A DNA stretch of 64,000 bases from Nannocystis pusilla. GTDB taxonomy: Bacteria; Myxococcota_A; Polyangia; Nannocystales; Nannocystaceae. Location of the stretch: assembly GCF_049337375.1 (NCBI RefSeq), contig NZ_JBMPIV010000001.1, one strand, 5' to 3'. A program made the translations under genes and the position numbers. Positions 6,028-45,683 of the stretch are shown here, piece after piece (position 1 is the stretch's first letter; each line of letters starts with the position of its first letter). The notes beneath the pieces are model-generated. The model did no database searches. It saw only the letters and a list, made by a program, of their open reading frames with translations, and was not told the DNA's origin.

Positions 6028-6127
6028 GCGGGTGGTGAGCCGAGGAGGGCGGCTCGGGGCGTGAGAGGAGCGCAGCGAGCAGGCGCCGGCGAGCGCGAGC
6101 GAGGCGGAGCGTTACGGCTGCGAGGCG

Positions 6128-6432
6128 GCTGTCTCTCCGGACAGATGCTCACGGCTGTCGCTTCGGACAGGTGGTCGCCGCCGTGAGGCGAGAGGTTTTC
6201 GGGCAGGCGGGCGCTTCGGTCGCGGAGTGGCTGTCGCTTGGGACAGGTGTTAGCGGCCGTGAGGCGAGAGGTTTTCGGGCAGGCGGGCGCTTCGGTCGCG
6301 GAGTGGCTGTCACTTGGGACAGGTGCTCGCGAGCGGGAAGAGCGGGGGTTTCGGACAGGCGGTTCGCGGCGCCGGCTGTCGCTTCGGACAGGCGCTCGGC
6401 GCTGCAGGGCTGGCTGTCTCTTTGGACAGGCG
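6128..6432. repeat. non-coding tandem repeat block: two near-identical ~76-bp units (6181-6249, 6257-6325) plus flanking degenerate copies, each carrying GCTGTC-N-GGACAGG hairpin motifs
   Basis: Direct reading: ccgtgaggcgagaggttttcgggcaggcgggcgcttcggtcgcggagtggctgtc(g/a)cttgggacaggtg occurs twice; flanks contain ctgtctctccggacag, ctgtcgcttcggacag, ctgtctctttggacag. Confidence 0.7.
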
Positions 6433-6524
6433 AGCCGGCGCTACTCGAGATGCAACGCCGGCGCGCGGTCGCGACAGAGCCGCCCGGAGTCGCGGGACGC
6501 CGGGCGGACGGGCTCGGGCGCGGT

Positions 6525-6908
6525 TCAGCGCAGCGAGTTGCGGAGCCGCGGGATGGTGTCCGGGAGGACGACGCTGACGAGGATGCCGAGCGGCGCCTTG
6601 ATGCAGTCGACGGCCATGCCCATGCGGTACTTGTCGGTCAGGTCGACGACGATGATCATGACGTTGCCCTCCTCGCCGAGGCGCAGGAGCGTCTGATAGA
6701 CGAAGTCGGGCACCGGCAGCTGGGACTTCTTGAGCGCCTCGGTGATTCGTTCACAGAGGATGTTGAAGAGGGCGCACGCCTTGGGCGAGCTGCGGATGCC
6801 GGCGACCGACATACCGGACGTCTTGCTGAAGACGTCGATGGTGGCGAGGCCGCCCATCAGGCCGTCTTCGATCTCGGTGAGGGTCGAATTCACGTCTTTC
6901 AGGTTCAT
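6525..6908 (-). CDS. possible Roadblock/LC7 (MglB-like) domain protein
   Basis: 127 aa, normal GC3-biased codon usage, non-repetitive; weak resemblance to roadblock fold pattern (GGLATIDV...SGMSVAG...GNVMIIVVDLTDKYRMGMAV). Family call is tentative. Confidence 0.4.
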   Translation of the reverse strand: MNLKDVNSTLTEIEDGLMGGLATIDVFSKTSGMSVAGIRSSPKACALFNILCERITEALKKSQLPVPDFVYQTLLRLGEEGNVMIIVVDLTDKYRMGMAVDCIKAPLGILVSVVLPDTIPRLRNSLR

Positions 6909-7342
6909 CTCGGTGTGCCTCTCGGGCCGCGATCAGCGAGCGAGGACCACACTACATGGAGCCGGGGTCCGATCGGTGGGGTGTCGGCGAGAAAGCGGCC
7001 CTGCCGTTCCGCGGGGGCGAGCGCGTCGCGGGTTGCACGCGTTCCGCGAAAGCGGCCGCAGGGCCACCTCCGCGGCGGTTTGGCGCCGTTCACGGTTGCG
7101 CAAACGGCGCCGGACGGCGAGAAATCCCCCTTGGTCTGGGGGCATCCGGGGGCCTGGGGGGCCGGCGGCCGTAGATCACCCCCGCCCGGTCCCGGTGGGT
7201 CGGCCGGCCAACTGTCCTGCCAGTCAGGGTGGTGCGGAGAGGGGGGCGCGCTCGCAAAGGGGGAGCCGGCGGCTGTCCTTGAGGGCAGGTCAGGAGCGCC
7301 CGACGACGCGCGGCGGTGAATCGGAGGCTGTCCTGGGGGACA

Positions 7343-7650
7343 GGTGGCGTCGCGGCGGGCTCGAGCATCGGTGGAGTGCCGTCGCGGCGGCGGCCTCGAG
7401 CATCGGTGGAGTGCCGTCGCGGCGGCGGTAGCGAGAGCGGTTGCCCGGTAGCGACCGCGGCGAGGTCGCGGCGGCGGGCTCGAGCATCGGTGGAGTGCCA
7501 TCGGGGCGGCGGTAGCGAGAGCGGTTGCCCGGTAGCGACCGCGGCGAGGTCGCGGCGGCCTTGAGCCTCGGTGGAGTGCCATCGGGGCAGCGGTCTCGGA
7601 GCGGGACGGTAGCGACCGCGGCGAGGCCGGTGCACCGACCTCGCCGCGCG
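7343..7650. repeat. non-coding tandem satellite, ~84-bp unit x ~3.5 (unit starts 7358, 7395, 7478, 7563) with internal GCGACC-gcggcgag-GGTCGC hairpins
   Basis: Repeated ctcgagcatcggtggagtgcc(g/a)tcg(c/g)ggcggcggtagcgagagcggttgcccggtagcgaccgcggcgaggtcgcggcggc read directly; no unique spacers, so not CRISPR. Confidence 0.75.
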
Positions 7651-7651
7651 G

Positions 7652-7675
7652 GCTGTCCTTGCGGACAGGTTTTTT
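7652..7675 (+). terminator. intrinsic-terminator-like hairpin GCTGTCC-ttgc-GGACAGG followed by TTTTTT
   Basis: 6-7 bp GC-rich stem, tetraloop, six T; oriented for + strand; lies 10 nt beyond the stop of the minus-strand DUF1552 gene. Confidence 0.4.
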
Positions 7676-7684
7676 AGATGTCTC

Positions 7685-9065
7685 TCAGGCCAGGAGGGCG
7701 GCGCACGGGGTGTTGGAGTAGCCGTCGCCGTCGGCGTTGGTCGCGCCGACCTCGGTGGCCTCCGGCACCACCGACTGCAGGCAGGCGAGCAGGATGTCGG
7801 AGGTGTTCTCGCTCGAGGGCGAGTGGTAGTGCTCGGCGGGGTAGCGCAGGGTGCCGCCGCCGCGGCCGGCGACGATGCACGGCTGGTCGAACACGCTGTG
7901 GGTGTAGCCCGAGGCGGCGTCGCTGCCGAGGATCACGACCGAGTTGTCGAGCAGGTTGCCGTCGCCCTCGACCGTCTCCTTGAGGCGGTTGAGCAGGACC
8001 GCGAAGCACTCGACGGTCTTGATCGTGCACTGGTCGACCGCCTCGTTGTCGGCGGTGTCGTGGGTCATGTCGTGGTGACCCTTGGCGTGGCCGAGGCTCT
8101 TGAAGATGTGGTAGCCGACCGAGCCCGAGAACTGGATGCTGACGATCCGGGTGAGGTCGCAGCGGAACGCCTCGATGATGATCTCGACCATGGCCGCGTT
8201 GACGAGCTCGATCGGCTCGGCGCCGTCGATGTCCATGTTGGTCTCGATCGGCATGCCCGGCAGGGTGCAGGCCGGCGGCAGGGTCTCGATCTGCTTCTTG
8301 ATCTGCTCGACGCTGGCGAGGTGGGCGTCGAGGCGGATCTTGTCGGCGCTGCCGACCCGCAGCTTGAGCGCCTTCACGTCCTCGCGCACGGCGTCGAGGA
8401 TGTCGACGCGCGGGCCCTTGGTCGGGTCGTCGGGCGGGACGAAGCTCTCGAACAGGGCGGCGAACGCCTCCTGCGGGTTGAAGAACGGCGGCAGCGGCTG
8501 GTCCGGGCCCTTGTGCGAGAGGTACTGCAGGGTCGGCCCCTCGCCGGTGATGACCCGCTTCGACACCGCGAGCTGCAGCGACGGCAGGAAGGTCTGAGCG
8601 CCGACGGCGGCGGCGGCGACCTGGTCGATCGAGGGGCCGCCGAACTTCGACGAGTAGCTGTTCTCGGCGTGCGGCAGCTCGATGAAGGGATAGCCGGAGA
8701 AGAAGCCGGCGCAGCCGTCGTGGTGGCCGCGGCGGTGCTTCGAGGAGGCCTTGATGTCGAAGCCGGTGAGCAGGTTGCAGTAGTCGCGCACGCCCTCGAG
8801 CGCGGCCAGCTGCGGGGTCAGCGGGTAGTTCGGCCCGGTCTCGGCGGGGGCCCAGCGGTTGCCCTTGCCGACGTCGGCGGGGTCGACGAGGGCGACGCCG
8901 TTGCCGAAGTGCCAGGTGATCATGCGCCGCGGCAGGTTGGTGCCGTCGGCGTGGGCGGTGCCGTTCGAGTTGAGCATGGCCTCGAGCAGCGGGAGCGCGA
9001 GCGCGACGGAGGTGCCCCCGGCGACGCCGCGGAGCAGGGTGCGACGGCTGAGTTGATGGCGCTTC
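7685..9065 (-). CDS. DUF1552 family protein with twin-arginine (Tat) signal
   Basis: ATG at 9065 preceded by AAGGAG RBS; MKRHQLSRRTLLRGVAGGTSVALA (RRxLL Tat motif); ~460 aa; 16 nt downstream of DUF1592 gene (operon). Confidence 0.8.
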
Positions 9066-9081
9066 ATGATTCGTGCTCCTT

Positions 9082-10854
9082 TCACTCCGGGGTGCCCACG
9101 CGCAGGAAGGCGGGGCTGGCGACGAGCTCGGCGAGGAGCTCCTTCATGCGGTACTCGTTGTCCTCGAACGCCTGGTCGAGGTCCTTCAGCGCCCCGGCCT
9201 CGCCGGGCACCTCGAGGTGGCCGGTGGCGTGGCGGAACAGGTTGCGCACGAGGCAGCGCGTGACCGCGGGGCTCTGGCGCAGGAGGCTGCCGAGCTCGCG
9301 GGCGCCGTCGAACTCGCCGAGGCCGTCGAGGTTGCTGACGGTGTCGAGGGTGACGCCGTTCTCGACGAGGCGGAACACGCCGATGCCGTCGAAGTTCTCG
9401 AGGCCGAAGCCGATGTCGTCCATGAGCTTGTGGCAGCCCGAGCACGAGGGGTTGGTCTGGTGCTCGGCCAGGCGGTCGCGCATGGTCGGGTAGTCCTCGC
9501 CGACCGGCAGCTCGGTGACGACGTCGGGCGGCGGCGCCGGGATGCCCTGACACATCAAGACCTCGCGCACGAACTTGCCGCGCAGGGTCGGCGAGGTGCT
9601 GCTGATGTGCGCGTAGGCGGCGAGGAAGCCGCCCTGACCGAGCAGGCCGCCGCGCTTGCTGTCGACCGGGAGGTCGAACTGCTGCCAGGTGTCGCCGAGC
9701 ACCGCAGGGTCGGGGATGAGGCCGTAGAGCGCGGCGAGCGGGCCGTTGGCGAAGGTGTACGGGGCGTCGAGGAAGTCGCGGAAGTCGGCCTCGCGCGTGA
9801 AGGCGATGTCGTCGATGAGCTTCAACGCCTCCTCGCGCATGGCGGTCCCGAGGGCGGGCGACCAGGCGGGGAAGGTGGCGGGATCCTTGGGCAGCGCCTC
9901 GAGGGTGCGCAGGCGCAGGACCTCGGCGAAGAAGCCGCCGAGAGCGCCGCGCGCGGCTGGCGTTTCGAGCATGGTCCAAGCGACATCCCGGACGGCGTCG
10001 GCGGTGGCGAGGCCGTCGCCCTCGCCGAGGTCGATGAGCTCGCGCGTCGGGGTGGTGTCGAGCAAGAAGAAGCTGAGGCGCGTGGCGAGCTCGACGCCGG
10101 TCAGGACTCGCTGCGCCGGATCGTCGGGATCGGGCTCGCCGACCTCGACCTGGTAGAGGAAGTAGGGCGACTGCAGCAGGCCGGCGACGGCGTACTCGCG
10201 GCCCGACTCCCAGCTGCCGAACGCCAGCGCGGCGTCGCGGCCGACCGCGCCGTAGCGATCGATCTCGGCCTGGGTGAGGCTGCGGCGCCAGGCGACGCGG
10301 CCGAAGTTGGCGACGAACTCCTTGTGACAGGCTTCGTCATCGGCGCCGGTCGGCACGCAGGTGTGGTAGCTGGCGAGGATGGCGTCGTCGGCGGCGGCCG
10401 CGACCTTGCGCGCGGACTTCTCGTAGGTGTCGACGGCCTGATCGTTGAGCGCGAGCTGGGCGGCGCCGATCGACTCGAAGCCGTTGAGCGCGCTGTCCGG
10501 CGGGGTCTCGACCTCGGCGGCCGCGGCGTCGCCGAGCAAGTAGGCGACGGAGCTCCGGTACTGACGCGCGAGAAGGAGGCGCAGGCGCGCCGGGGCCGGA
10601 GCGAACTCTTCCCCACCGCCGTCAGTCGGGTCGGTGCCTTCGGTCGGATCGCCGTCGGTGCCGGCGGAGTTCGGCCCGCTGGTCTCGGTGGGATCCTCGC
10701 CGCCGGTCAGGGTGGGGTTGCTGGCGCTCTGGTCCTGGCCGGCGCCGTGGTAGCAACCGCCGGCGAGGCTCGCCGTGAGAGTGAGAAGGACCGCGAGCTC
10801 TCCCGGACCTTGCGGCCTGGATGGTGCGCGGGCGAAACGAGGCTGCCTGGGCAT
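9082..10854 (-). CDS. DUF1592/DUF1588-type protein with CxxCH heme-binding-like motif (partner of DUF1552)
   Basis: ATG 10854 with AAGGAG RBS; signal peptide/lipoprotein-like N-term (LTLTASLAGGC); motif NPSCSGCHKLMD (CXXCH); architecture matches the DUF1585/1587/1588/1592/1595 family that pairs with DUF1552. Confidence 0.8.
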   Translation of the reverse strand: MPRQPRFARAPSRPQGPGELAVLLTLTASLAGGCYHGAGQDQSASNPTLTGGEDPTETSGPNSAGTDGDPTEGTDPTDGGGEEFAPAPARLRLLLARQYRSSVAYLLGDAAAAEVETPPDSALNGFESIGAAQLALNDQAVDTYEKSARKVAAAADDAILASYHTCVPTGADDEACHKEFVANFGRVAWRRSLTQAEIDRYGAVGRDAALAFGSWESGREYAVAGLLQSPYFLYQVEVGEPDPDDPAQRVLTGVELATRLSFFLLDTTPTRELIDLGEGDGLATADAVRDVAWTMLETPAARGALGGFFAEVLRLRTLEALPKDPATFPAWSPALGTAMREEALKLIDDIAFTREADFRDFLDAPYTFANGPLAALYGLIPDPAVLGDTWQQFDLPVDSKRGGLLGQGGFLAAYAHISSTSPTLRGKFVREVLMCQGIPAPPPDVVTELPVGEDYPTMRDRLAEHQTNPSCSGCHKLMDDIGFGLENFDGIGVFRLVENGVTLDTVSNLDGLGEFDGARELGSLLRQSPAVTRCLVRNLFRHATGHLEVPGEAGALKDLDQAFEDNEYRMKELLAELVASPAFLRVGTPE

Positions 10855-11024
10855 GGGCGGCTCCTTGCTGGGGGATCCACCATAAGGGAGGGTCAAGATC
10901 TGCGTCCACGGCGCGCATCGTGAGGGGGGCTGTCTACTGAGGTTCCCTGTCCGCAGAAGACCCCACGCGCCGAGGTCGGGCCGTGACGCGCCCGCGAAAG
11001 CGTTGTATTACCGATCGTGGAGCG

Positions 11025-11555
11025 ATGAACCTCGTCCCGCCGACGTACATCTGCCTCGACCTGCCCGAGCCGCAGGCGTCGGAAGTGATGGCGCTGCGTC
11101 GCCGCTACTGTCAGCGCCTCAAAGACTTCCCGCCCGAGATCACGATCACGGGATCGAGCGGCGTGGGCGCGATGCTGCCGCAGCTCCACTGGGACCGCGT
11201 CGAACCCAAGCTCGAGGCCATCGCGCAGGAGTGGGCGCCGATCCGCGCGAGCCTCGGCGGGATGGTCCGCTTCCCGGACACCGACATCTTCTGCCTCAGC
11301 ATGTCGGACCCGATGCCGTTCATGGCCCTCCACGAGGCGCTCAAACACTCGGGGATCGCGTTCGAGGAGAGCCAGTTCCCGTTCTTCCCCCACTGCACGA
11401 TCCGCATGGCGGGGCCGCTCACCGACGCGGACGTCAGCGCGCTGTTCTCGCTCACCGTCCCCGGCGAATTCACGATCGCCGAGCTGGCCCTGTATCAGCG
11501 CACGACCGACGACCGGATCGTCCGCGTGTGGTCGCGGCCGCTCGCCGGCTCGTAG
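11025..11555 (+). CDS. 2H phosphoesterase superfamily (LigT/2'-5' RNA ligase-like) protein
   Basis: ~176 aa; second HxTx motif present (PHCTIRM); first motif degenerate; start chosen at MNLVPPTYICLD. Confidence 0.4.
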   Translation: MNLVPPTYICLDLPEPQASEVMALRRRYCQRLKDFPPEITITGSSGVGAMLPQLHWDRVEPKLEAIAQEWAPIRASLGGMVRFPDTDIFCLSMSDPMPFMALHEALKHSGIAFEESQFPFFPHCTIRMAGPLTDADVSALFSLTVPGEFTIAELALYQRTTDDRIVRVWSRPLAGS

Positions 11556-11617
11556 GCCCGTCGGCCGGCGAGAGGTGTTGCCGGTCGGGCCCGCGCTCGG
11601 GCACTCGGTCGATCGTG

Positions 11618-12658
11618 CGCAGATCGAGCCTCGTTTCCCTCGTCACCGTCGGCCTCGTCGCTTGCGAGGATCCGGCCGCGAGCAGCGCGACCGACGGCGC
11701 CTCGACCACCGGGGCGAGCTCCGAGATGTCCCCGACGACAGGTCCTATGGAACCTGTCCCAACGACCTCGTCATCGGGCAGCTCCGGATCTACCGCCGCG
11801 CAGGACGAGTGCCCCGAGGGCTGCGCGACGGACGAAGCGTGCGTCGGGGGCAGCTGCGAGGCCGTCGGTCGCGCGGACATCGAGGCCGGCTGCCACCCGC
11901 TCGGCGACCCCACAGGCCTCGGCCAGTGCGTGTACCCGTGGCCGTCGAACTTCTACACGACGCCGACAGCCGACAGCCCGACGGGCCTGGCAGTGGCGCT
12001 GCCGGCCGCGCTGCTGCCGAAGAACACGCAGCAGGCCGAGTTCCCCGCAGACGAGTTCCTCAATGGGAAGCCGGGGTTCACCCCGAACGCGCAGCTCCGG
12101 TTCGCGTCGGCGCAGCCCGTCGACGGATCGTCGCTGCCGCCGCTCGGCGACATCGGAAGCTCGCTGGCCGAGCAGGCGCCGATCGTGCTGCTCGAGGTCC
12201 GCTCGGGGGAACGCTGGCCGTACTTCGCGGAGGTCGATGCGACGGCCGTGGCAGGCGAGCCCCAGACGATCTTCGTGCGGCCGATGCGACGGCCGCGTGC
12301 GGGCGAGCGCTACGTGGTCGCCGTTCGCGGGCTGCGCGATAAAAACGGCGAGGAGATCCCGGCGTCGCCGCTGTTCCGCGCGCTGCGCGATGAACTGACG
12401 ACCGATGTGCCGCAGCTCGAGGCCGAGCGCGCGCGCTACGACGAGATCTTCGCGGCGCTGGCCCGGAGGTGGTGCAATGAGTGGCCGCATGTCGCCGATC
12501 CATCGCCGCCCCGGTCGGCAGCGCGCTCGCTCGCGTGCGGAGGGATATCCGCGGAGGCGGTAAGCCTGGCGACAAGGACATGTCCTTTGAGGAATGTCGG
12601 CCAGGCTATGTTGTATAGGACATGGCCTTTAGGGCATGTCCGTCAGGGCGTGGCGTGA
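11618..12658 (+). CDS. hypothetical lipoprotein (Ser/Thr-rich linker, Cys-rich segment); 3' end overlaps repeat array
   Basis: GTG start; SLVSLVTVGLVAC lipobox; ECPEGCATDEACVGGSCE; C-terminal ~30 codons run through the GGACATGTCC repeat array (12571-12645) so the true C-terminus is uncertain. Confidence 0.45.
   Translation, partial: RRSSLVSLVTVGLVACEDPAASSATDGASTTGASSEMSPTTGPMEPVPTTSSSGSSGSTAAQDECPEGCATDEACVGGSCEAVGRADIEAGCHPLGDPTGLGQCVYPWPSNFYTTPTADSPTGLAVALPAALLPKNTQQAEFPADEFLNGKPGFTPNAQLRFASAQPVDGSSLPPLGDIGSSLAEQAPIVLLEVRSGERWPYFAEVDATAVAGEPQTIFVRPMRRPRAGERYVVAVRGLRDKNGEEIPASPLFRALRDELTTDVPQLEAERARYDEIFAALARRWCNEWPHVADPSPPRSAARSLACGGISAEAVSLATRTCPLRNVGQAMLYRTWPLGHVRQGVA
12571..12645. repeat. 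array of five 14-bp-period (G)GRCATG(Y)CC units between/overlapping convergent gene ends
   Basis: ATG cores at offsets 10,24,38,52,66 of the block (exact 14-bp period), read directly. Confidence 0.7.
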
Positions 12659-14229
12659 AGGGTCGGCTGCAGCATGCCGGCGAGGCAGCCGAGGGCGGCG
12701 GTGTAGTCGCTGTCGCAGACGGACTCGATGCAGCAGCGCATGGCGCGTTCGTTGACGGCGGTGTCGGGGTCGTCGGGGATGTCGAGCGCCTGGCAGACTT
12801 CCTGGATCCGCCCGGGCGGGACGGCCTGGCCGGCAGGGCCGACGCAGCCGGGGCCGATGCCGAACTCGAATTGTTTGTCGTCCGGGGTGTCGGTGTCGCC
12901 GGGCAAGATGTCGTCGGGCCGCCAGTCGCGGTAGACGAGGGCGTCGACGCCGCCGGCGAGGGGCTCGAACGGAGGGGCTTGGTTGTGCTCGGTGACCTGG
13001 GGGACGCCGCCGAGGACGAGCATGACGACGTCCTTGCCGTGGAGCTGGCGCAGGTCGGCGAGGGCCTCGGTGTAGCGGGAGACGGGCTGGAGGACGTGCT
13101 TGTCCTCGGACATGCACCACTCGTACTCGCCGTCGTCGTCGTCGTCGGCGCAGGTCATGCCGGCGTTCCAGCACACGGCGCTGGTGGGCTCGGTCCGCTG
13201 GCCGCTGCTCGGGTGCGACGGCCAGTACTTGCTGAACTCGGGGTCGTCGTGCAGCTTGGGGTCGAAGTAGGCGAAGTTGAGGGTGGAGCAGTCGGTCTCG
13301 TCGGTGACGATGACGACCGCGAGCGGGGCGCCAGGGCGCAAGAAGGGCCGCTCGCCGATGTTCCACCGCGCCTCGAGGTCGAGCGCGCGCCGCATGGCCT
13401 CGAGCGGCGACTCCATGCCGCAGCCGTCGATGCCCTGCGGGCCGATGCAGGCGAGGGCGTCGGCCGCGGGGTCGCCCATGCCGTCAGGGTCGATGACGTT
13501 GTGGCCGGTGGGGCTGAAACGGATGAACGGATCGGTGGGGACGGAGGGGGCAGCCTCGGCGCAGCGCGAGGTGCAGATCTCGGACATCACCGGCGGATCG
13601 GCGCCGAGGCCGGTAAATCGCGCCAGGCGGTCGGTGCACGGGGTGTCGATCGGCTGGCCGTCGGCGGCGTCGTAGTCGGGCTTCTCGAACGGCGTGCACA
13701 GCGGGTGCGGCACGTCGGTGGTGGTGACCATGATGTGCACGTCGGCGCCGACGAGCTGACCGTTGGCGTCGCTGAGGCCGCGCAGCAGCTTGACGAAGGC
13801 AGGGAAGCTGTCGGCGAGCTGGCTCTGCTCCTCGCCCATGGTGCCGGAGTTGTCGATGACGAACAGGACGTCGAGCTGCTCGCAGGCGCCGCCGTCGATG
13901 CAGCCGGTCTCGGGCGGCGGATCTTCGCCGGTGGTGACGGGCTCGCCGGTGGTGCCGTCAGGCGGGTCGCCGGTGGTGTCCGGCTCGGCGGTGGTGGTCG
14001 GCAGCGGGTCGAGGGTGGTGTCGTCGACGTGCTGCGAGGTGACGACGAGGGTGTCGATGCTGATGGTGTCGGCGCCGTCGGTGTCACCGGGGAGCTCGCC
14101 CAGGGGGCTCGGATCGAGGATGCAGCCGAGATGTACGAAAGGACAGGTGAGAACCACGGCGAGGCACGCCCTCGCCGCGGAGGCGATCGGGCTGCGGTGC
14201 GTTCGAGAAGTGGGCACGGGTCGTCTCAC
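12643..14229 (-). CDS. secreted/lipoprotein with von Willebrand factor type A (vWA) domain
   Basis: DVLFVIDNSGTMGEEQ (DxSGT MIDAS), hydrophobic N-terminus; GTG start uncertain; follows anti-sigma gene in operon. Confidence 0.65.
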   Translation of the reverse strand: MRRPVPTSRTHRSPIASAARACLAVVLTCPFVHLGCILDPSPLGELPGDTDGADTISIDTLVVTSQHVDDTTLDPLPTTTAEPDTTGDPPDGTTGEPVTTGEDPPPETGCIDGGACEQLDVLFVIDNSGTMGEEQSQLADSFPAFVKLLRGLSDANGQLVGADVHIMVTTTDVPHPLCTPFEKPDYDAADGQPIDTPCTDRLARFTGLGADPPVMSEICTSRCAEAAPSVPTDPFIRFSPTGHNVIDPDGMGDPAADALACIGPQGIDGCGMESPLEAMRRALDLEARWNIGERPFLRPGAPLAVVIVTDETDCSTLNFAYFDPKLHDDPEFSKYWPSHPSSGQRTEPTSAVCWNAGMTCADDDDDGEYEWCMSEDKHVLQPVSRYTEALADLRQLHGKDVVMLVLGGVPQVTEHNQAPPFEPLAGGVDALVYRDWRPDDILPGDTDTPDDKQFEFGIGPGCVGPAGQAVPPGRIQEVCQALDIPDDPDTAVNERAMRCCIESVCDSDYTAALGCLAGMLQPTLHATP

Positions 14230-14241: not shown

Positions 14242-14952
14242 TCAGGGCTGCGCGGCAGATCCATTACAGAGCGTGGCCGCCCGGTCGACCAGAGGCGAGC
14301 CCGGAAAACGCTGCGGGAAGCTGGCGACCAGCTCGCGGGCGGCGTCGCGCTGGCCGAGGGCGCAGCGGGCCTCGATCTCGAGCAGGCTGCGCTCGGCGGC
14401 CAAAATGCCGCCGGGGAAGCGCCGGGCGTGCTCCTCGATCAACTGCAGGCGCTCGGCGGGCGCGGCCAGCTTGGCCCGCCGCAGCAGGTCGACCTCGGCG
14501 GCGACGGTGTCCTCACGCGCAGGGCGGCGCGCCTTGGAGGTGTCCGCAGGGCCAGGCTTGTCGGTGGGCTGCGCCTCGGGTGCGACCTCGGGCGCCGGAT
14601 CGGGCGCGGAGGCGCGGGCCGGATCGGGGCGCTGGACGGACTCGGCGGTCCGGGTCGCGTCGCCCTCGTGGGCCTGATACGGAGCGGCGACGTGGGTCTG
14701 CGGCGCCTCGCCGCCCTTCATGACGGCCCAGGTCAGGGCCAGCAGGACGCCGGCCGCCAAGGCGAAGCCGGCGAGCACCCGCGGGGCGAGGCGCGAGCGA
14801 GAGGGCGCTTCGTCGTCGAGGTCGTCGCCGCCGCCCTCCTCGACGCGCTGCTCGAGCGCGGCGAGGACTCGGTCGGCGATCGCGCGGTCGGGCGACTCGG
14901 CGCTGCGAAATGCGGCCAGGCGCGCCCGCGCCTCCGAACTCAGCGGTTCCAT
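14242..14952 (-). CDS. putative membrane anti-sigma factor
   Basis: Overlaps ECF sigma stop by 13 nt; cytoplasmic N-domain, single TM (LAGFALAAGVLLALTWAV), periplasmic C-domain; call based on position and architecture. Confidence 0.5.
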   Translation of the reverse strand: MEPLSSEARARLAAFRSAESPDRAIADRVLAALEQRVEEGGGDDLDDEAPSRSRLAPRVLAGFALAAGVLLALTWAVMKGGEAPQTHVAAPYQAHEGDATRTAESVQRPDPARASAPDPAPEVAPEAQPTDKPGPADTSKARRPAREDTVAAEVDLLRRAKLAAPAERLQLIEEHARRFPGGILAAERSLLEIEARCALGQRDAARELVASFPQRFPGSPLVDRAATLCNGSAAQP

Positions 14953-15506
14953 GCTGCTTGCCTCCCATCCGCTCGTTCGGTCTCGGCGATGGCCCGCTCG
15001 AACTCGGCCCGAGCGGCCCGCAGACGCGAATAAACGGTGTTCAATTTGACATCGAGGGCCTGGGAGATCTCCGGCGCCGTGAAGCCCTCGAGGTCGGCGA
15101 GGATGAAGACCATGCGCTTGTCGTTGTCGAGGCTGTCGAGGAAGCGTTGCACGAAGTCGGCGGCCTCGGCGCGCTCGGCGACGCGCTCGCGCGGTTGATG
15201 GGTATGGACGACGGCGAATGCCTGGATCCGGCGCTCGTGGCGCCGGAGGCCGCGGCGGAAGTCGCTGGCGACCCGCCGCGCGGTGCCGAACAGCCAGCTG
15301 CGCAGCGAGATCTGCGGGTCGAGGCCCGGGAGGCGGCGGTGCAGGACGAGGAATACGTCCTGGGCGGCGTCCTCGAGCTGGTCATAAGGGACCCCGAGGC
15401 GGCGAAGGATCCGCCAGACGAGGTCGAAGTAAGCGTAGTACACGGTGGCGAACCCGCGCTGCGCGTGCTCCTCGGGGCCAGATATGGGCGGCTGAAGCTT
15501 CAGCAC
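14940..15506 (-). CDS. ECF (sigma-70 family group 4) RNA polymerase sigma factor
   Basis: Region 2 (AQDVFLVLHRRL) and region 4 (APEISQALDVKLNTVYSRLRAARAEF) motifs. Confidence 0.8.
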   Translation of the reverse strand: MLKLQPPISGPEEHAQRGFATVYYAYFDLVWRILRRLGVPYDQLEDAAQDVFLVLHRRLPGLDPQISLRSWLFGTARRVASDFRRGLRRHERRIQAFAVVHTHQPRERVAERAEAADFVQRFLDSLDNDKRMVFILADLEGFTAPEISQALDVKLNTVYSRLRAARAEFERAIAETERADGRQAAWNR

Positions 15507-16577: not shown

Positions 16578-16876
16578 GGCCGCAGCAGCCTCGGATGGTA
16601 GACGCGAGCCCGACCGGGACGCCAGGGGGCTGCGGCGGGGCGGCGCCGAGTTTGTTCGGCGTTCGGCGGCCGAGCGGTGAGCTGTCCTTCGGGACATGTG
16701 AACAGCGAGCGCGACGCGGCGCCCGGGGCGGAACCGCCCGGCGGTCGCGCGCGCGCCAGGACGCTCGGGGCGGTGTCCGCGGGGTGTCAGCGCGGGCGAG
16801 GCGGCGGCGTTGTGGGGCTGCACGCCGAGGCACGAGGCTGTCAAGCTGGCCCGTGCCCCGGCCCAAGGAGACGCGC

Positions 16877-19042
16877 ATGAACCCGTGGATGAAGTGGATC
16901 CTCCTGGCGACCCCGCTCGCGCTGACGCAGTGCCGCTCGAGCTCGGTGAGCCCGATCGGCACGGTGACGCCCGACGGCAACAACAACGTGATGCTGGCCC
17001 ACGGGCAAGGGGACGTGGCTTACGAGGCGCCGCCGCACACGTTCTCGGCGCGTCCGCACCCGCCGCGCAACCGCAGCGACGCGCCGCCGCCGAACCTGGC
17101 GGCCCTGCCGAAGATGGTGTCGCGGATCGATCAGTGCTACGGGCCGAGCGGCGGCGCCATCGCTTCCGGTGGCGGTCCCTCGGGCGGGGCGATACCCAAG
17201 CCGATCAAGAAGCCGGCGCCGCCGAAGCCGAAGTACAAGCAGGTGACCTACGGCGGCGGCTCGGCGCCTCCGCCCTCGCCGTCGCCGATCCAGACGACGC
17301 CGTCGGCCGGGGGGCTCGGCAAGGGCGAGGGGGCGGCGGGTCGCGGCAGCAGAGGGGGATTCGATGCCGGCGCAGCGCCGCCGCAGTCTCCTCCGCCGCC
17401 GCCGGTGACCGCGTCGAAGTCGGCGAACACGCAGGGGGACGCCGACATGCGCCGGGCCGAGAAGGCCGAGCAGAAGAAAAAGAAGGATCGCGGGCGCGAC
17501 AAGGCGGCCGAGGAGCGCCCGGGCACCGCCGCGGCGGCGCCGGCCGAGGCGCAGGTGGCCAGTGACGAGGCGGAGGACACGAACTCGGTGGCGTACGAGC
17601 CGGTCCAGCAGGTCGGCGACGGCGAGGCCCAGTACAGCGACTGGGGTCAGGCGACGTACCTGTCGAACGACGACACGATGAGCCTGTCGTCGGCGCAGCG
17701 GGTGATCTTCGCCATCGACAAGTTCCTGCCGGTGCCGCTCGAGCACATCCGGCCGCACGAGCTGCTCAACTACTTCTCGTTCGAGACGGCCGAGGTGGCG
17801 CCGACCGACGACTTCTCGGTGCTGCCCGAGATCGCCAAGGATCCGAAGCAGGACGGGATCTACAACCTGGCGCTGGCGATCCGCGGGCGCCCGGTCGACA
17901 AGCAGGCGCGGCGCAACGGCAACCTGACGTTCGTGGTCGACCGCTCGGGGTCGATGAGCGACGAGGGCCGCATGGACTACCTCAAGCGGGGCATGCGGAA
18001 GATGATGGGCGAGCTCAAGACCGGCGACCTCGTCAACGTGGTGCTGTTCGACCACGAGGTGTGCGTGCCGGTGGAGAACTTCGTGGTCGGGCGCGACAAG
18101 CCGGAGGTGCTCGAGAAGGCGATCGAGCGCATGAAGCCGCGTGGATCGACCGACGTGCACGCGGGCCTGACCCGCGGCTACGAGCTGGCCGACCGCGGCT
18201 ACCAGCACACCTACAACAACCGCGTGGTGCTGGTCACCGACGCGCTCGCCAACACCGGCAACACGGACCCGCGGACGATGTCGATGGTGGCCAAGTACTA
18301 CGACGAGCGGAAGATCCGCCTGTCGGGCGTCGGCGTCGGCACCGAGTTCAACGACGCGCTGCTCGACAAGCTGACCGAGCGCGGCAAGGGGGCCTACGTG
18401 TTCCTCGGCTCCGAGGCCGAGGTCGACGCGGTGTTCGGCCCGCGCTTCATCTCGCTGCTCGAGACGACCGCGATGGACGTCCACTTCCAGCTGCACCTGC
18501 CGCCGTCGCTGCGCATGAACGTGTTCTACGGCGAGGAGAGCTCGGCGGTGAAGGAGGACGTGCAGGCGATCCACTACTTCGCCAACACGTCGCAGCTGTT
18601 CCTGTCCGACCTGATGGCGCGCGGCAAGAAGCTGCGGCCGCAGGACCAGATCATGCTGACCATCGAGTACGAGGACCCGGAGTCGGGGCAGAAGATGGTC
18701 GAGGAGCGGGCGTTCCAGCTGGCGGAGATCGAGCGCGAGGCCTACAACATCCGCAAGGGTCGCCTGCTGATCGCGTGGGCCGACCGCCTGGCGCTGATGG
18801 CCTCGCGGCCGCAGCCGATCGGCACCGCGCCGGTCGCCGGGGCCTGGATCGACGCCGACGGCTGGCAGCAGTGCGAGCAGGGCAAGGCCGACCTGCGCGA
18901 CATGGCCCAGGGGATGAACGACCCCGAGGTCACCCGCGTGCTGTCGCTGTGGGACAAGTTCTGCGCGCGCTACGAGCAGCCGCGCAACCCCGTGCGCCGC
19001 ACCCCGGCGTCCGGGCCCGACGCGTGGCCGTCGGCCCGCTGA
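16877..19042 (+). CDS. YfbK-like secreted protein: vWA-interacting N-domain + vWA domain + DUF3520-like C-terminus
   Basis: ATG 16877 with AAGGAG RBS; signal peptide MNPWMKWILLATPLALTQC; SLSSAQRVIFAIDKFLPVP...NYFSF; vWA MIDAS FVVDRSGSM; ~720 aa. Confidence 0.75.
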   Translation: MNPWMKWILLATPLALTQCRSSSVSPIGTVTPDGNNNVMLAHGQGDVAYEAPPHTFSARPHPPRNRSDAPPPNLAALPKMVSRIDQCYGPSGGAIASGGGPSGGAIPKPIKKPAPPKPKYKQVTYGGGSAPPPSPSPIQTTPSAGGLGKGEGAAGRGSRGGFDAGAAPPQSPPPPPVTASKSANTQGDADMRRAEKAEQKKKKDRGRDKAAEERPGTAAAAPAEAQVASDEAEDTNSVAYEPVQQVGDGEAQYSDWGQATYLSNDDTMSLSSAQRVIFAIDKFLPVPLEHIRPHELLNYFSFETAEVAPTDDFSVLPEIAKDPKQDGIYNLALAIRGRPVDKQARRNGNLTFVVDRSGSMSDEGRMDYLKRGMRKMMGELKTGDLVNVVLFDHEVCVPVENFVVGRDKPEVLEKAIERMKPRGSTDVHAGLTRGYELADRGYQHTYNNRVVLVTDALANTGNTDPRTMSMVAKYYDERKIRLSGVGVGTEFNDALLDKLTERGKGAYVFLGSEAEVDAVFGPRFISLLETTAMDVHFQLHLPPSLRMNVFYGEESSAVKEDVQAIHYFANTSQLFLSDLMARGKKLRPQDQIMLTIEYEDPESGQKMVEERAFQLAEIEREAYNIRKGRLLIAWADRLALMASRPQPIGTAPVAGAWIDADGWQQCEQGKADLRDMAQGMNDPEVTRVLSLWDKFCARYEQPRNPVRRTPASGPDAWPSAR

Positions 19043-39845: not shown

Positions 39846-40772
39846 ATGTCGACCCCGCATCCTGCTTCGCCCGAGGCCCGTGATCGTCTGGTGCTGGGAG
39901 TCGTCGGCGGCTCGGGGCTGTACGAGATCGAGGGGCTCGAAGAGGTCGAGCAGGTCGCGCTCGAGACGCCCTTCGGACGACCGTCCGACGCCTACACGGT
40001 GGGGCTCCTGCCGCGGGCGGACGGGCTGCCGCCGGTGCGCGCGGTGTTCCTGCCGCGGCACGGACGCGGACACGTGCTGCTGCCTTCGGAGATCAACTTC
40101 CGCGCCAACGTGCACGGCTTCAAGCAGCTCGGCGTGACCCACCTGCTCAGCGTGTCGGCGGTCGGCTCGCTGCGCGAGGACATCGCGCCCGGCGACGTCG
40201 TCATCCCCGACCAGTTCATCGACCGCACCGCCGGCCGCGCCCAGACCTTCTTCGGCGGCGGGCTGGTGGCGCACGTGCAGATGGGCGACCCGGTCGACGC
40301 CGGGCTGTCGCGCCGCGTCGCCGGCGCGGCCGAGGCCGAGGGCGCCCGCGTCCACGTCGGCGGCACGTGCGTGGTGATGGAGGGCCCGGCGTTCTCGACC
40401 CGCGCCGAGTCCAACCTGTACCGCTCGTGGGGCGCGCACGTGATCGGCATGACCGCGCTGCCCGAGGCCAAGCTCGCCCGCGAGGCCGAGATCGCCTACG
40501 CCCTGGTGGCGCTGGCCACCGACTACGACTGCTGGCACCAGAGCGAGGGCGAGGTCAGCGTCGAGGCCGTGATCGCGGTGCTCAAGGCCAACGTGGCGCT
40601 GTCGCGCCGCCTCATCGCCCGCGTGGCCGCCGGCCTGCCGGTGTCGACCGCCGAGCTGCCGTACCCGCGCGCGCTGCAGCACGCGCTCATCACCGATCCC
40701 ACGCGGATCCCGGCGGAGACGCGCGAGCGCCTCGAGCTGATCGCGGGGCACCTGCTGCAGGCGCCGGAGTGA
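39846..40772 (+). CDS. mtnP: S-methyl-5'-thioadenosine phosphorylase
   Basis: 308 aa PNP/MTAP family: GVVGGSGLY, GMTALPEAKLAREAEI, phosphate/purine-binding motifs. Confidence 0.85.
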   Translation: MSTPHPASPEARDRLVLGVVGGSGLYEIEGLEEVEQVALETPFGRPSDAYTVGLLPRADGLPPVRAVFLPRHGRGHVLLPSEINFRANVHGFKQLGVTHLLSVSAVGSLREDIAPGDVVIPDQFIDRTAGRAQTFFGGGLVAHVQMGDPVDAGLSRRVAGAAEAEGARVHVGGTCVVMEGPAFSTRAESNLYRSWGAHVIGMTALPEAKLAREAEIAYALVALATDYDCWHQSEGEVSVEAVIAVLKANVALSRRLIARVAAGLPVSTAELPYPRALQHALITDPTRIPAETRERLELIAGHLLQAPE

Positions 40773-40834
40773 GATGTCCCAGAGGACATGTGCCAGTGCG
40801 CATGTCCGTCGATGCCTGTCCTTTCAGGCATGTT
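40771..40834. repeat. ATGTCC-caga-GGACAT hairpin plus CATGTCC / CTGTCCTTTCAGGCATG units between mtnP and PfkB kinase gene
   Basis: Read directly; overlaps mtnP stop. Confidence 0.65.
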
Positions 40835-40861
40835 TGAACGAACAGCAACGAAGAGAGAGCC

Positions 40862-41803
40862 ATGACCGTCAGTAAGCCCCACCTCGTCGTCGTCGGCAGC
40901 GTCGCCATCGACTGGATCATCACGCCCCGCGCCGAGCGGCCCGAGAGCGTCGGCGGATCGGCGACCTTCTTCGCGATGGCGGCGTCGTACCTGTCCCAGG
41001 TGCGGCTGGTCGGCGTGGTCGGGCGCGACTTCCCCGACTACGCGGTGGCCGACCTCAAGGCGGCGGGCGTCGACACGTCCGGCCTCGAGATCGTGCAGGA
41101 CGGGCTGACCTTCCGCTGGAAGGGCCAGTACCACGAGAACATGAACGACCGGACGACGCTCGAGACGCACCTCAACGTGTTCGAGAAGTTCCAGCCGCGC
41201 CTGCCGGACGAGTTCCGCGGCAGCGAGTTCCTGTTCCTGGCCAACATCCAGCCGCGCCTGCAGAGCGACGTGTTCGCGCAGATGCAGCGGCCCCGCCTGG
41301 TCGGCCTCGACACGATGAACCTGTGGATCTCGATCGCCAACGACGACCTCAAGGCGGTGCTGAAGAACGTCGACGTGCTGACCCTCAACGACGAGGAGGC
41401 CCGCCAGCTCAGCGGGGAGCACAACATCGTGAAGGCGGCCCGCGCGGTCCGAGCCCTCGGACCCCGCAACGTGGTGATCAAGCGCGGCGAGTACGGGGCG
41501 CTGCTGTTCGACGCGGACGGCGAGGTGTTCTCGGCGCCGGCGCTGCCGCTCGAAGAGGTGGTCGACCCGACGGGCGCAGGCGACAGCTTCGCCGGCGGCT
41601 TCATGGGCTACCTGGCCCGCCCTGGCGTGGAGACCAGCGGAGCCTCGCTGCGCACCGCGATGATCTACGGGTCGGTGATGGCCTCGTTCTGCGTCGAGGG
41701 GTTCTCGTACGACCGGCTGAAGGGGCTCGACGCGGCGACGATCCAGAAGCGCTTCGAGACGTTCGCTTCGCTGACGAACTTTGCGCGGGCCAGCTTGACC
41801 TGA
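40862..41803 (+). CDS. PfkB-family carbohydrate/nucleoside kinase
   Basis: 313 aa; DPTGAGDSFAGGF ATP-binding signature, N-terminal GS..D ribokinase-like motif. Confidence 0.8.
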   Translation: MTVSKPHLVVVGSVAIDWIITPRAERPESVGGSATFFAMAASYLSQVRLVGVVGRDFPDYAVADLKAAGVDTSGLEIVQDGLTFRWKGQYHENMNDRTTLETHLNVFEKFQPRLPDEFRGSEFLFLANIQPRLQSDVFAQMQRPRLVGLDTMNLWISIANDDLKAVLKNVDVLTLNDEEARQLSGEHNIVKAARAVRALGPRNVVIKRGEYGALLFDADGEVFSAPALPLEEVVDPTGAGDSFAGGFMGYLARPGVETSGASLRTAMIYGSVMASFCVEGFSYDRLKGLDAATIQKRFETFASLTNFARASLT

Positions 41804-41988
41804 GGCCGGAGATTGGCGGTTCGCTAATTGCCGACTGTGAATTTGGCTCAGTTCCGGCGCATACGCCGGAATTCGGGCTACTTGCCAGCCAGTGCCAGGC
41901 GGTTGCCACGGACCGGCGGGGTCGGCCGCATCGGCACCACGGGCGCCAGCGTCGGGGGCGGGGCGGTTCCCGCCAGCATGTCCACCGT

Positions 41989-42226: not shown

Positions 42227-42227
42227 C

Positions 42228-43137: not shown

Positions 43138-43153
43138 TCGTAGCCCCATCCGG

Positions 43154-44212: not shown

Positions 44213-44250
44213 GGCTAGCCCCGCGCCGAACGACCGCGTGCCGCGCCGCC

Positions 44251-45155: not shown

Positions 45156-45683
<528 letters not shown>

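What the first reader, a model, noticed from the sequence alone, without database searches (positions are those of the whole stretch)
7685..10854. DUF1552 (Tat-signal) plus DUF1592-type CxxCH protein operon: conserved pair of unknown function
Two translationally adjacent minus-strand genes with strong AAGGAG RBSs. Upstream is a 590-aa secreted protein carrying a CSGCH heme-c-type motif, in the DUF1585/1587/1588/1592/1595 architecture. Downstream is a 460-aa Tat-exported DUF1552 protein. This pair is widespread in Planctomycetes, Verrucomicrobia and myxobacteria. To my knowledge it has never been functionally characterised. The CxxCH plus Tat-partner combination suggests a periplasmic redox or binding module.
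Basis: partly seen in the sequence, partly recalled or inferred. Interest (0 to 1): 0.6.

Follow-up and report, generated by a model that had tools for sequence, protein, structure and literature searches.

The report
Haem-motif lipoprotein plus phosphatase-fold partner operon
This is a real two-gene operon in a Nannocystis-like myxobacterium, and an ordinary member of a very large gene pair that is already described but has no known function: a secreted protein with an invariant haem-attachment motif, always encoded next to a Tat-exported protein that I show has an alkaline-phosphatase-type fold with a histidine-rich metal site.

Summary
Gene A (9082-10854, minus strand, 590 aa) has the architecture PSD3-PSD5-PSD4-PSCyt3-PSD2 and CSGCH at residues 471-475. 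Gene B (7685-9067, minus strand, 460 aa) is DUF1552/HXXSHH with an SRRTLL Tat signal. Both have AAGGAG ribosome-binding sites, and 14 nt separate them.

The pairing is essentially obligate. An A-type gene is adjacent in 78 of 80 genome loci; the other two are cut by contig ends. It also holds in 5 of 5 metagenome loci. No third gene is conserved. CxxCH is invariant in 150/150 distant representatives.

New here:
- A gives a confident all-helical model with no solved relative and no resemblance to known cytochromes c.
- Some relatives of A add an N-terminal cytochrome c-type PSCyt1 domain.

Best model: a periplasmic two-subunit enzyme, with B as the Tat-exported metal subunit and A as a lipid-anchored haem c subunit. 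The substrate is unknown and electron transfer is inferred.

The pair itself was reported by He et al. 2017, so this is a new member of a known, uncharacterised kind. Interest is moderate.

The parts
9082..10854 (-). Gene A: 590-aa secreted PSD3-PSD5-PSD4-PSCyt3-PSD2 protein ('DUF1592 domain-containing')
   Evidence: ORF and start codon. All five Pfam domains are above their gathering scores. It is 98% identical to the DUF1592 protein of Nannocystis sp. RBIL2. AF2 model: pLDDT 86.6 overall and above 90 for residues 82-590, almost all helical.
10861..10866 (-). AAGGAG ribosome-binding site of gene A, 6 nt before the ATG
10753..10854 (-). Signal peptide of A ending in a probable lipobox (LAGG-C34)
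   Evidence: Read from the sequence. C34 is invariant in 60 orthologues and present in 75% of 150 distant representatives. No signal-peptide predictor was available, so lipoprotein status is inferred.
10600..10752 (-). Acidic Gly/Thr/Pro/Asp-rich linker (residues 35-85), probably a flexible tether
   Evidence: AF2 pLDDT is below 50 for residues 1-81. Sequence.
9370..9654 (-). PSCyt3 (DUF1588) domain of A, residues 401-495
   Evidence: Pfam 3.4e-29. The family motif is T-x-R-x5-H-x5-C-x-x-C-H-x2-M-D-P-x-G-x3-E-x-F-D-x2-G-x2-R.
9430..9444 (-). CSGCH (residues 471-475), the candidate haem c attachment site
   Evidence: C471, C474 and H475 are 100% conserved in 151 sequences, and nearby H465 is 94% conserved.
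9076..9081 (-). AAGGAG ribosome-binding site of gene B, abutting A's stop codon (9082-9084), 8 nt before B's ATG
   Evidence: In 70 related loci the A-to-B junction is a -4 nt overlap (19 loci) or mostly 5-38 nt.
7685..9067 (-). Gene B: 460-aa Tat-exported DUF1552/HXXSHH protein with an alkaline-phosphatase-superfamily fold
8948..9067 (-). Tat signal peptide of B (SRRTLL; AHA cleavage site at residues 38-40)
   Evidence: R8, R9, A38 and A40 are invariant. RR is present in 119/120 orthologues. The Pfam TAT_signal model gives only weak hits (best E 0.011) in 16/59 members. RR is also kept in the second subfamily and in 5 metagenomic lineages.
8714..8737 (-). HRRGHHDG (residues 111-118). Gly114 sits where topology places the superfamily nucleophile. 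H116 is invariant and position 115 is H or D.
   Evidence: The secondary-structure order (strand 97-101, then helix 116-124) comes. The mapping to the nucleophile position is by topology only.
8057..8074 (-). HDMTHD (residues 332-337), this protein's version of the family's HxxSHH motif. H332 and H336 are invariant.
   Evidence: The aligned paralogue in L033 reads HSLSHH. Conservation.
7895..7927 (-). GSDAASGYTHS (residues 381-391). D383 (D or E) and H390 are invariant, following strand 376-382.
7651..7669 (.). Palindromic hairpin GGCTGTCCTTGCGGACAGG, 16 nt after B's stop. It marks the likely 3' end of the operon and is one copy of a local repeat family.

Best explanation
The operon encodes a self-contained two-subunit enzyme of the cell envelope.

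Subunit B is exported folded by the Tat pathway. It has an alkaline-phosphatase-superfamily alpha/beta core and an invariant cluster of five histidines plus acidic residues: H116, H332, H336, H390, H413 and D/E383, with D148 and D242 also invariant. By strand topology this cluster lies where the superfamily binds its metals. B lacks the Ser/Thr/formylglycine nucleophile of the classical members.

Subunit A is exported unfolded by Sec. It is probably lipid-anchored at Cys34 and hangs on an acidic tether of about 50 residues. It would receive one covalently bound haem at its invariant CxxCH, within a large all-helical body that has no solved relative.

Working model: B is the catalytic metal subunit, and A is its dedicated haem c electron-transfer and anchoring subunit. 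This is the same logic as in periplasmic Tat-enzyme plus Sec-cytochrome pairs such as SorAB. The complex would carry out a redox-dependent, probably oxidative, transformation of an unknown envelope or extracellular substrate.

Shown: the gene pair, the domain content, the fold of B, the conservation patterns and the obligate linkage.
Inferred: lipidation, haem binding, metal binding, physical association, electron transfer and any substrate.
For: - Obligate tight linkage. An A-type gene is adjacent on the same strand in 78 of 80 genome loci spanning 36-98% B identity; the other two loci are truncated by contig ends. The same holds in 5/5 metagenome loci of 52-72% GC. Junctions are a -4 nt overlap or mostly 5-38 nt. 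No third gene is conserved.
- CxxCH is 100% conserved in 150 representatives at 36-51% identity. The family has 20,171 representatives at E<=1e-3.
- Export routes differ in the way expected for a haem c subunit paired with a cofactor-loaded subunit. A has a Sec/lipoprotein-type N-terminus with no RR motif. B has an invariant RR motif and AxA site.
- Of 10 longer relatives of A scanned, 3 carry an extra N-terminal PSCyt1 domain. One of these also matches Pfam Cytochrome_CBB3 (7.5e-6), and these proteins are still followed by a DUF1552 gene. This argues for electron transfer.
- H116, H332, H336, H390, H413 and D/E383 are invariant across two divergent DUF1552 subfamilies (203 sequences) and five further lineages.
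- The position where topology places the nucleophile is Gly in this protein and in all of subfamily 2. This argues against classical covalent phospho- or sulfo-transfer.
Against: - No member of either family has been studied biochemically, as far as four literature searches show.
- No conserved distal Met is evident. H465 lies only 6 residues before the first Cys.
- To my knowledge, every characterised member of the alkaline-phosphatase superfamily is a hydrolase, transferase or mutase, and none is a redox enzyme.
- No A-B complex prediction could be run.
- 14 of 60 A orthologues weakly match DUF1800. From my own recollection, DUF1800 lacks CxxCH, although it pairs with the Tat protein DUF1501. 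If so, haem may not be essential to this type of module.
Confidence: 0.42

Rival explanations
1. Non-redox esterase or transferase with an accessory subunit. B would be a divergent metal-dependent phospho-, sulfo- or similar esterase or group transferase of the alkaline-phosphatase superfamily. It would use a water or another residue (for example the invariant S/T335) in place of the classical nucleophile. A would be a substrate-binding and membrane-anchoring subunit, with its haem or metal site serving a structural or regulatory role.
For: - The fold of B is that of hydrolases and transferases.
- S/T335 lies within HxxSHH. In the two Myxococcota-derived subfamilies it is T or S in 81 of 83 sequences and S in 120 of 120.
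- Relatives of A in PVC bacteria and Cellvibrio carry carbohydrate-binding modules (He et al. 2017 Text S1; a CBM2-DUF1592 protein in a lignocellulose secretome, PMC6004670). Laminin_G_3 genes flank L085. Both point to substrate targeting by A.
- The weak DUF1800 similarity links A to partners of DUF1501 that, from my recollection, have no haem motif.
Against: - Absolute invariance of C-x-x-C-H over 150 divergent representatives is more than a dispensable site would show.
- Recurrent fusion to cytochrome c-type PSCyt1 domains is hard to explain without electron transfer.
- S/T335 is not kept outside those two subfamilies: it is Cys in L084 and Asn in L085.
Confidence: 0.28
2. A is the enzyme and B is a non-catalytic partner. 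A would use its haem, which might be five-coordinate or His/His-ligated, together with its many invariant charged residues to carry out peroxidase- or oxygenase-like chemistry. B would be a pseudo-enzyme of the alkaline-phosphatase fold that binds or presents a ligand, as PbgA/YejM does.
For: - A has numerous invariant Arg, Glu, Asp and Tyr residues: R190, R191, E197, E237, E255, R259, Y377, R401, R425, D479, E486, D489, R495.
- B lacks the canonical nucleophile.
Against: - The invariant five-His/acid cluster of B, and its strict Tat export across all lineages, are typical of a cofactor-bearing active subunit rather than a passive binder.
- A resembles no known haem enzyme.
Confidence: 0.15
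3. The CxxCH of A is not a haem site. Together with H465 it would form a Cys2His2-type metal site (Zn, Cu or Fe), and A would act as a metal-binding or metal-delivering partner of B.
For: - H465, C471, C474 and H475 are all at least 94% conserved and lie close together in sequence.
- There is no similarity to any cytochrome c family or fold.
- Some relatives carry extra 'Cu-binding_MopE' putative metal-binding motifs.
Against: - C-x-x-C-H with the His immediately after the second Cys is the canonical haem c signature.
- A uses a Sec-type signal, as apocytochromes c must.
- Relatives add further cytochrome c-type domains (PSCyt1), not metallochaperone domains.
- B's Tat export suggests that it is already metal-loaded before export.
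Confidence: 0.1

Closest known systems
PSCyt3/PSD ('Group III') protein plus DUF1552 gene pair, described in Verrucomicrobia MAGs (He et al. 2017, mSphere, PMC5615132 Text S1). The domains were first defined in Rhodopirellula baltica; the Studholme et al. 2004 attribution is as cited in Kamneva et al. 2012.
   Same: Same Pfam domain set and order in A, same DUF1552 partner, and same immediate adjacency. The window's locus is an ordinary member.
   Different: This copy comes from a myxobacterium (Nannocystis). It has no carbohydrate-binding or protein-interaction add-on domains. Instead it has a lipobox and an acidic tether. No function is known for the family.
DUF1501 plus PSCyt1/PSCyt2/PSD1 module of PVC bacteria (Kamneva et al. 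2012, PMC3542564), and DUF1800 plus DUF1501 operons of Proteobacteria (PMC5122149)
   Same: Same logic: a Tat-signal protein of unknown function encoded next to a large secreted protein that carries a CxxCH motif (or, in the Proteobacteria operons, a DUF1800 domain). Kamneva et al. proposed electron transport. 14 of 60 A orthologues weakly match DUF1800, and one matches PSD1.
   Different: B does not match the DUF1501 model at any reported threshold. A has no PSCyt2 domain, and only one of 60 orthologues weakly matches PSD1 (E 0.015). At most these are sister modules. That DUF1501 also has an alkaline-phosphatase-like fold is my recollection and was not tested here.
Alkaline-phosphatase superfamily (PafA, NPP/ENPP, S1 sulfatases, phosphonate monoester hydrolases, MCR-1/EptA, LtaS, PbgA/YejM)
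   Different: Sequence identity is 7-16%, and no sequence-level match exists to any Pfam or PDB member. There is no Ser/Thr/formylglycine nucleophile: the position is Gly114 here. The ligand set is richer in His. B is roughly equidistant from all subfamilies and has an obligate CxxCH partner, which no characterised member has.
Periplasmic heterodimers made of a Tat-exported catalytic subunit and a Sec-exported monohaem cytochrome c, e.g. sulfite dehydrogenase SorAB (from established knowledge)
   Same: Two adjacent genes. The cofactor-bearing enzyme subunit has a twin-arginine signal, and the partner has a single CxxCH and a Sec signal. The complex is periplasmic.
   Different: B has no molybdopterin or other known redox-cofactor domain; Pfam reports only HXXSHH. 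A has 590 residues and a novel helical fold, and is not a small class I cytochrome. The comparison is an analogy of design, not homology.
Cellvibrio japonicus Cbp2D (CBM2, X158, FN3, DUF1587 and two CxxCH domains). Its X183 domain is a proven c-type cytochrome that reduces LPMOs (Branch et al. 2021, PMC8981238).
   Same: It contains a DUF1587/PSD3 domain alongside single-CxxCH domains in a secreted protein with a redox role.
   Different: Only PSD3 is shared. Cbp2D is not reported to have the PSD5-PSD4-PSCyt3-PSD2 core or a DUF1552 partner.

Membership tests
PSCyt3/PSD 'Group III' proteins (Pfam PF07626, PF07637, PF07631, PF07627, PF07624) | All five domains present in the order PSD3-PSD5-PSD4-PSCyt3-PSD2, each above its Pfam gathering score | tested here: met
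   bit scores 26.2/56.2/103.7/101.5/53.7 against cut-offs 23/34.2/23.3/27/25.8. All 60 orthologues match all five domains.
PSCyt3/PSD 'Group III' proteins (Pfam PF07626, PF07637, PF07631, PF07627, PF07624) | Conserved CxxCH within PSCyt3 | tested here: met
   CSGCH at residues 471-475. Invariant in 120/120 orthologues and 150/150 representatives.
PSCyt3/PSD 'Group III' proteins (Pfam PF07626, PF07637, PF07631, PF07627, PF07624) | Encoded next to a DUF1552 gene | tested here: met
   14-nt gap in the window. Adjacent in 78 of 80 genome loci; the other two are cut by contig ends. Adjacent in 5/5 metagenome loci.
DUF1552 / HXXSHH (PF07586) | Match to the family profile above the gathering score | tested here: met
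   185.8 bits against a cut-off of 30, covering profile positions 1-295 of 307.
DUF1552 / HXXSHH (PF07586) | The HxxSHH motif | tested here: met
   Present as the variant H332-D-M-T-H336-D. The first and fifth positions (both His) are invariant, S is replaced by T, and the last H is replaced by D. The aligned paralogue in L033 reads HSLSHH.
DUF1552 / HXXSHH (PF07586) | Twin-arginine signal peptide | tested here: met
   SRRTLL motif. R8 and R9 are invariant across subfamilies. Actual export by Tat is not testable here.
c-type cytochromes | CxxCH haem-attachment motif | tested here: met
c-type cytochromes | Export as an unfolded apoprotein by Sec, to reach the haem ligation machinery | tested here: inconclusive
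   The N-terminus has a basic region, a hydrophobic stretch and LAGG-C34, and no RR motif. No signal-peptide predictor was available. The presence of ccm genes in the genome was not checked.
c-type cytochromes | Sequence or fold similarity to a known cytochrome c class | tested here: not met
c-type cytochromes | Covalently bound haem with defined axial ligands | not testable with these tools
   Requires haem staining and spectroscopy. The candidate distal ligand H465 is 94% conserved. M478 is only 68% conserved and lies on the same helix as H475.
Alkaline-phosphatase superfamily | Core alpha/beta fold | tested here: met
Alkaline-phosphatase superfamily | Metal-binding Asp/His residues at the C-terminal ends of the core strands | tested here: inconclusive
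   The invariant residues N/C56, H116, H332, H336, D/E383, H390 and H413 follow strands 48-54, 97-101, 306-312, 376-382 and 412-415. No superposition or coordinates were available, so the equivalence is topological only.
Alkaline-phosphatase superfamily | Ser, Thr or formylglycine nucleophile at the N-terminus of the helix that follows the second core strand | tested here: not met
   The position mapped by topology is Gly114 here. It is Gly in 120/120 sequences of subfamily 2, and Gly 58% / Thr 37% in subfamily 1.
DUF1501 plus PSCyt2/PSD1 (or DUF1800) module | Tat partner matches DUF1501 (PF07394), and the large partner matches PSCyt2/PSD1 or DUF1800 | tested here: not met
   B and its 59 relatives match only HXXSHH. 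A matches DUF1800 only below threshold (16 bits against 26.1; 14 of 60 orthologues, best E 3e-4). PSD1 is matched by 1 of 60.

The most novel reading that the evidence does not exclude
The PSCyt3/PSD plus DUF1552 pair would be the first redox enzyme built on the alkaline-phosphatase scaffold. In this reading, a five-His/carboxylate metal centre (possibly Fe or Cu) has replaced the hydrolytic Zn/Mg/Ca site and its nucleophile. The centre is wired to a dedicated haem c subunit that has a previously unseen all-helical fold. The enzyme would perform oxidative cleavage or modification of esterified or glycan substrates in the envelope of Myxococcota, Planctomycetota, Verrucomicrobiota and others. 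With more than 20,000 sequence clusters, this would be a major unrecognised enzyme class.
Probability: 0.25. Interest if true: 0.8.

Novelty: new member of a known kind. Interest (0 to 1): 0.45.

Why it matters
The family is very large. A-type proteins have 20,171 50%-identity cluster representatives at E<=1e-3. [quoted passage not shown]

This analysis adds concrete handles for experiments:
- B is an alkaline-phosphatase-fold protein with a defined invariant His/acid cluster and no classical nucleophile.
- A gives a confident model with no solved relative and carries an absolutely conserved CxxCH.
- The two genes are obligately linked and need no third partner.
- Some relatives of A add a cytochrome c-type PSCyt1 domain.

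Together these results turn 'two DUFs' into a testable hypothesis: a metal subunit working with a haem subunit. They also name the residues to mutate.

The locus in this window is not unusual within the family.

Tried and rejected
- NCBIfam gave no match for either protein.
- PDB sequence searches with single proteins and with family profiles gave only chance-level hits.
- Pfam at E<=10 showed no link from B to DUF1501, Sulfatase, Phosphodiest or Metalloenzyme, and no link from A to any cytochrome family.
- I searched for a conserved third gene by clustering flanking ORFs from the 80 loci. Only Ser/Thr kinases (11 loci) and sigma-54/FHA activators (5 loci) recurred. Both are abundant in myxobacteria and sit at inconsistent positions, so I rejected them as chance.
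- There is no second copy of either gene in the window. No DUF1800-like or DUF1501-like ORF turned up in the fetched loci that could serve for a profile-profile test.
- The promoter scan found nothing. The only terminator-like site is on the opposite strand and is a repeat-family hairpin.
- Cluster look-up of distant representatives gave no organism names.
- Four literature searches found no functional study.
- I considered reading STSPTLRG (residues 419-426 of A) as a sulfatase-type C/S-x-P-x-R maturation motif. I rejected it because the spacing to Arg is off by one.


Full report
**1. Is it there?**

Yes. The window has about 71-75% GC. The real reading frames stand out by third-position GC of 0.9 or more.

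- Gene A runs from 10854 to 9082 on the minus strand (ATG, 590 aa). AAGGAG lies 6 nt upstream of the ATG.
- Gene B runs from 9067 to 7685 (ATG, 460 aa). Its AAGGAG directly abuts A's TGA, and 14 nt separate the two genes.
- A contains CSGCH at residues 471-475.
- B begins MKRHQLSRRTLLRG and has a conserved AxA site at residues 38-40.

Pfam places A in PSD3(92-155)-PSD5(176-237)-PSD4(251-379)-PSCyt3(401-495)-PSD2(514-583), and B in HXXSHH/DUF1552 (48-347, E 1.8e-54). All are above their gathering scores. NCBIfam has no model for either protein.

The closest database proteins are the DUF1592 and DUF1552 proteins of Nannocystis sp. RBIL2, N. bainbridge and N. exedens, at 95-98% identity. At the DNA level the operon is about 97% identical to strain RBIL2.

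**2. Surroundings**

The operon stands alone.

- Upstream, a divergent 2H-phosphoesterase-family gene (10983-11555, plus strand) is conserved only among close Nannocystis relatives.
- Downstream lies about 750 bp of repeat-rich non-coding DNA, then a small orphan gene (6525-6908), then HxlR and SDR genes.
- A palindromic hairpin sits 16 nt after B's stop codon.
- No sigma-70-like promoter was found.

**3. Linkage and conservation**

A scan of one genome per species returned 80 Myxococcota loci encoding B relatives at 36-98% identity.

- An A-family gene is adjacent on the same strand in 78 of them. The other two loci are cut by the contig end just upstream of B.
- The order is A then B in 76 loci, and B then A in 2.
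- A's stop and B's start overlap by 4 nt (ATGA) in 19 loci. In most of the others they are 5-38 nt apart.
- Five metagenomic A-type representatives at 36-42% identity, from contigs of 52-72% GC, are each followed by an HXXSHH gene between -4 and +22 nt away.
- Clustering of all flanking ORFs found no third conserved partner. Only kinases and sigma-54 activators recur, and they sit at inconsistent positions.
- Genomes hold several paralogous pairs. For example, L001 and L050 both come from strain RBIL2.

The A family is very large: 20,171 50%-identity representatives at E<=1e-3, and 6,848 at E<=1e-30.

Among the best 150 representatives:
- C471, C474 and H475 are 100% conserved.
- The motif is embedded in T-x-R-x5-H465-x5-C-x-x-C-H-x2-M-D-P-x-G-x3-E-x-F-D-x2-G-x2-R.
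- Two further Cys pairs (C166/C176 and C435/C534) are 97-99% conserved. They are likely disulfides.
- The lipobox Cys34 is present in 75%.

**4. What the proteins look like**

*Protein B.* The AF2 model has pLDDT 81 and pTM 0.82, and only the signal peptide is disordered. It has an alkaline-phosphatase-superfamily fold.

- B is about equally distant from every subfamily.
- No sequence method connects B to the superfamily.

I used the last large protein search on a divergent paralogue (L033 10928-12379). It retrieved a second DUF1552 subfamily whose motif reads GHHSLSHH. This shows that Pfam's 'HXXSHH' corresponds to H332-D-M-T-H336-D in B.

Conservation across both subfamilies (203 sequences) and the five extra lineages:

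| Position | Residue(s) |
|---|---|
| 116, 332, 336, 390, 413 | His, invariant |
| 148, 242, 304 | Asp, invariant |
| 307 | Arg, invariant |
| 383 | Asp or Glu |
| 115 | mostly His or Asp (Gly in L085) |
| 56 | mostly Asn or Cys (Gly in L085) |
| 114 | Gly in all of subfamily 2; Gly 58% / Thr 37% in subfamily 1 |

N56, H116, H332, H336, D383, H390 and H413 each follow a core strand in the model. In this superfamily, that is where the metal ligands sit.

The spacing H332-x3-H336, then 47 residues to D383, mirrors the D-x3-H, then about 43 residues to D-H, of NPP and PafA. Those NPP/PafA residue numbers are from memory. The equivalence is inferred, not superposed.

So the classical covalent-catalysis residue is not a feature of this family, while a His-rich site is.

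*Protein A.* The model is very confident (pLDDT above 90 for residues 82-590) and almost entirely helical. Residues 1-81 are disordered and comprise the signal peptide, the lipobox and an acidic tether.

- No cytochrome Pfam family matches it, even at E<=10.
- The 'cytochrome' label therefore rests on the invariant CxxCH and on context.

The context does support it:
- A uses a Sec-type signal, whereas B uses Tat.
- Of ten longer relatives scanned, three carry an additional N-terminal PSCyt1 domain. One of these also matches Cytochrome_CBB3.
- Three others carry C-terminal MopE-type putative metal-binding motifs.
- The PSCyt1-fused forms are still paired with DUF1552.
- 14 of 60 orthologues weakly match DUF1800 through the PSD2 region (best E 3e-4), and one matches PSD1. 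This hints at distant kinship with the partners of DUF1501.

**5. Mechanism**

The best-supported reading is a self-contained two-subunit envelope enzyme. B is a Tat-exported metal subunit on an alkaline-phosphatase scaffold. A is a lipid-tethered monohaem c subunit that feeds or drains electrons and may also bind substrate. This is the design of SorAB-like periplasmic enzymes.

- Shown: the operon structure, domain membership, the fold of B, the invariant residues, the obligate pairing, and the fusions to cytochrome c-type PSCyt1 domains.
- Inferred: lipidation, haem and metal binding, complex formation, electron transfer and the substrate.

Rivals:
- (i) An ordinary non-redox esterase or transferase with a binding and anchoring subunit.
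- (ii) A is a haem enzyme and B is a PbgA-like non-catalytic binder.
- (iii) CxxCH together with H465 forms a non-haem metal site.

To my knowledge, every characterised alkaline-phosphatase-superfamily member is non-redox. That fact is the main argument against the preferred model, and it is also what would make the model interesting if true.

**6. Comparison with what is known**

- The domains were defined in Rhodopirellula baltica.
- Kamneva et al. 2012 described the analogous DUF1501 plus PSCyt1/2/PSD1 module and proposed electron transport.
- He et al. [quoted passage not shown]
- Other mentions are incidental: a stress-regulated DUF1552 gene in R. baltica, a CBM2-DUF1592 protein in a lignocellulose secretome, DUF1587 in Cellvibrio Cbp2D, and presence of these domains in facultatively anaerobic Pseudomonas.
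- I found no biochemical or genetic characterisation.

**7. Verdict**

However, the pair is already on record as a conserved module of unknown function, and the Nannocystis copy is a plain member of it.

The added value is the structural and residue-level description, and a sharpened, testable hypothesis. Interest is moderate (0.45). Novelty: new member of a known kind.

Noticed in passing
window 6126-7670 (also 25235-25253): A small palindromic hairpin, GGCTGTC-N5-GGACAGG, occurs 8 times in the window, where 0 are expected. Seven copies lie between 6153 and 7669, all in the same orientation. They are embedded in two tandem arrays: a 76-nt unit repeated 3 times at 6153-6380, and an 84-nt unit repeated about 3.5 times at 7346-7629. 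The arrays flank the small gene 6525-6908, and the last copy sits just after gene B's stop codon. This looks like a REP- or MITE-like repeat. The alignment to strain RBIL2 breaks at the 84-nt array.
   Followed up: partly
window 6525-6908 (-): A 127-aa ORF with strong coding-type GC3 (0.93) but unusually low GC at codon positions 1 and 2. It has no Pfam match. It sits between the two repeat arrays.
   Followed up: no
window 11603-12658 (+) and 12463-12617: A secreted-looking ORF with no Pfam hit appears shortened relative to Nannocystis sp. RBIL2 and N. radixulma. Those genomes carry about 1.7-1.8 kb between the points that align to window 12463 and 12617, while N. bainbridge lacks the 11553-12617 segment. 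This is a strain-variable indel hotspot next to the operon.
   Followed up: partly
window 12643-14229 (-), 14940-15506 (-), 16595-19042 (+): The neighbourhood holds three further genes: a 528-aa secreted protein with a DxSGS-like motif (DNSGT) but no Pfam hit, an ECF sigma factor, and an 815-aa vWA-domain protein.
   Followed up: no
window 40001-52000: GC content drops to 0.675-0.70, against 0.73-0.757 at 20-40 kb, and GC skew is near zero. This may be a region of different origin.
   Followed up: no
L076 1618-3180 (-): A very divergent DUF1552-like ORF (E about 6e-11 to the B profile). It keeps the His equivalent to H336, the S-E equivalent to S382-D383, and the His equivalent to H390. Its N-terminus looks lipoprotein-like rather than Tat-like. 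It lies convergent to a normal B gene, and no A-type gene is visible on the short contig.
   Followed up: partly
L084 5001-7883; P0340, P0349, P0379: Some A-type proteins (824-960 aa) have long C-terminal extensions carrying Cu-binding_MopE putative metal-binding motifs. L084 also has a vWA/MopE protein nearby.
   Followed up: partly
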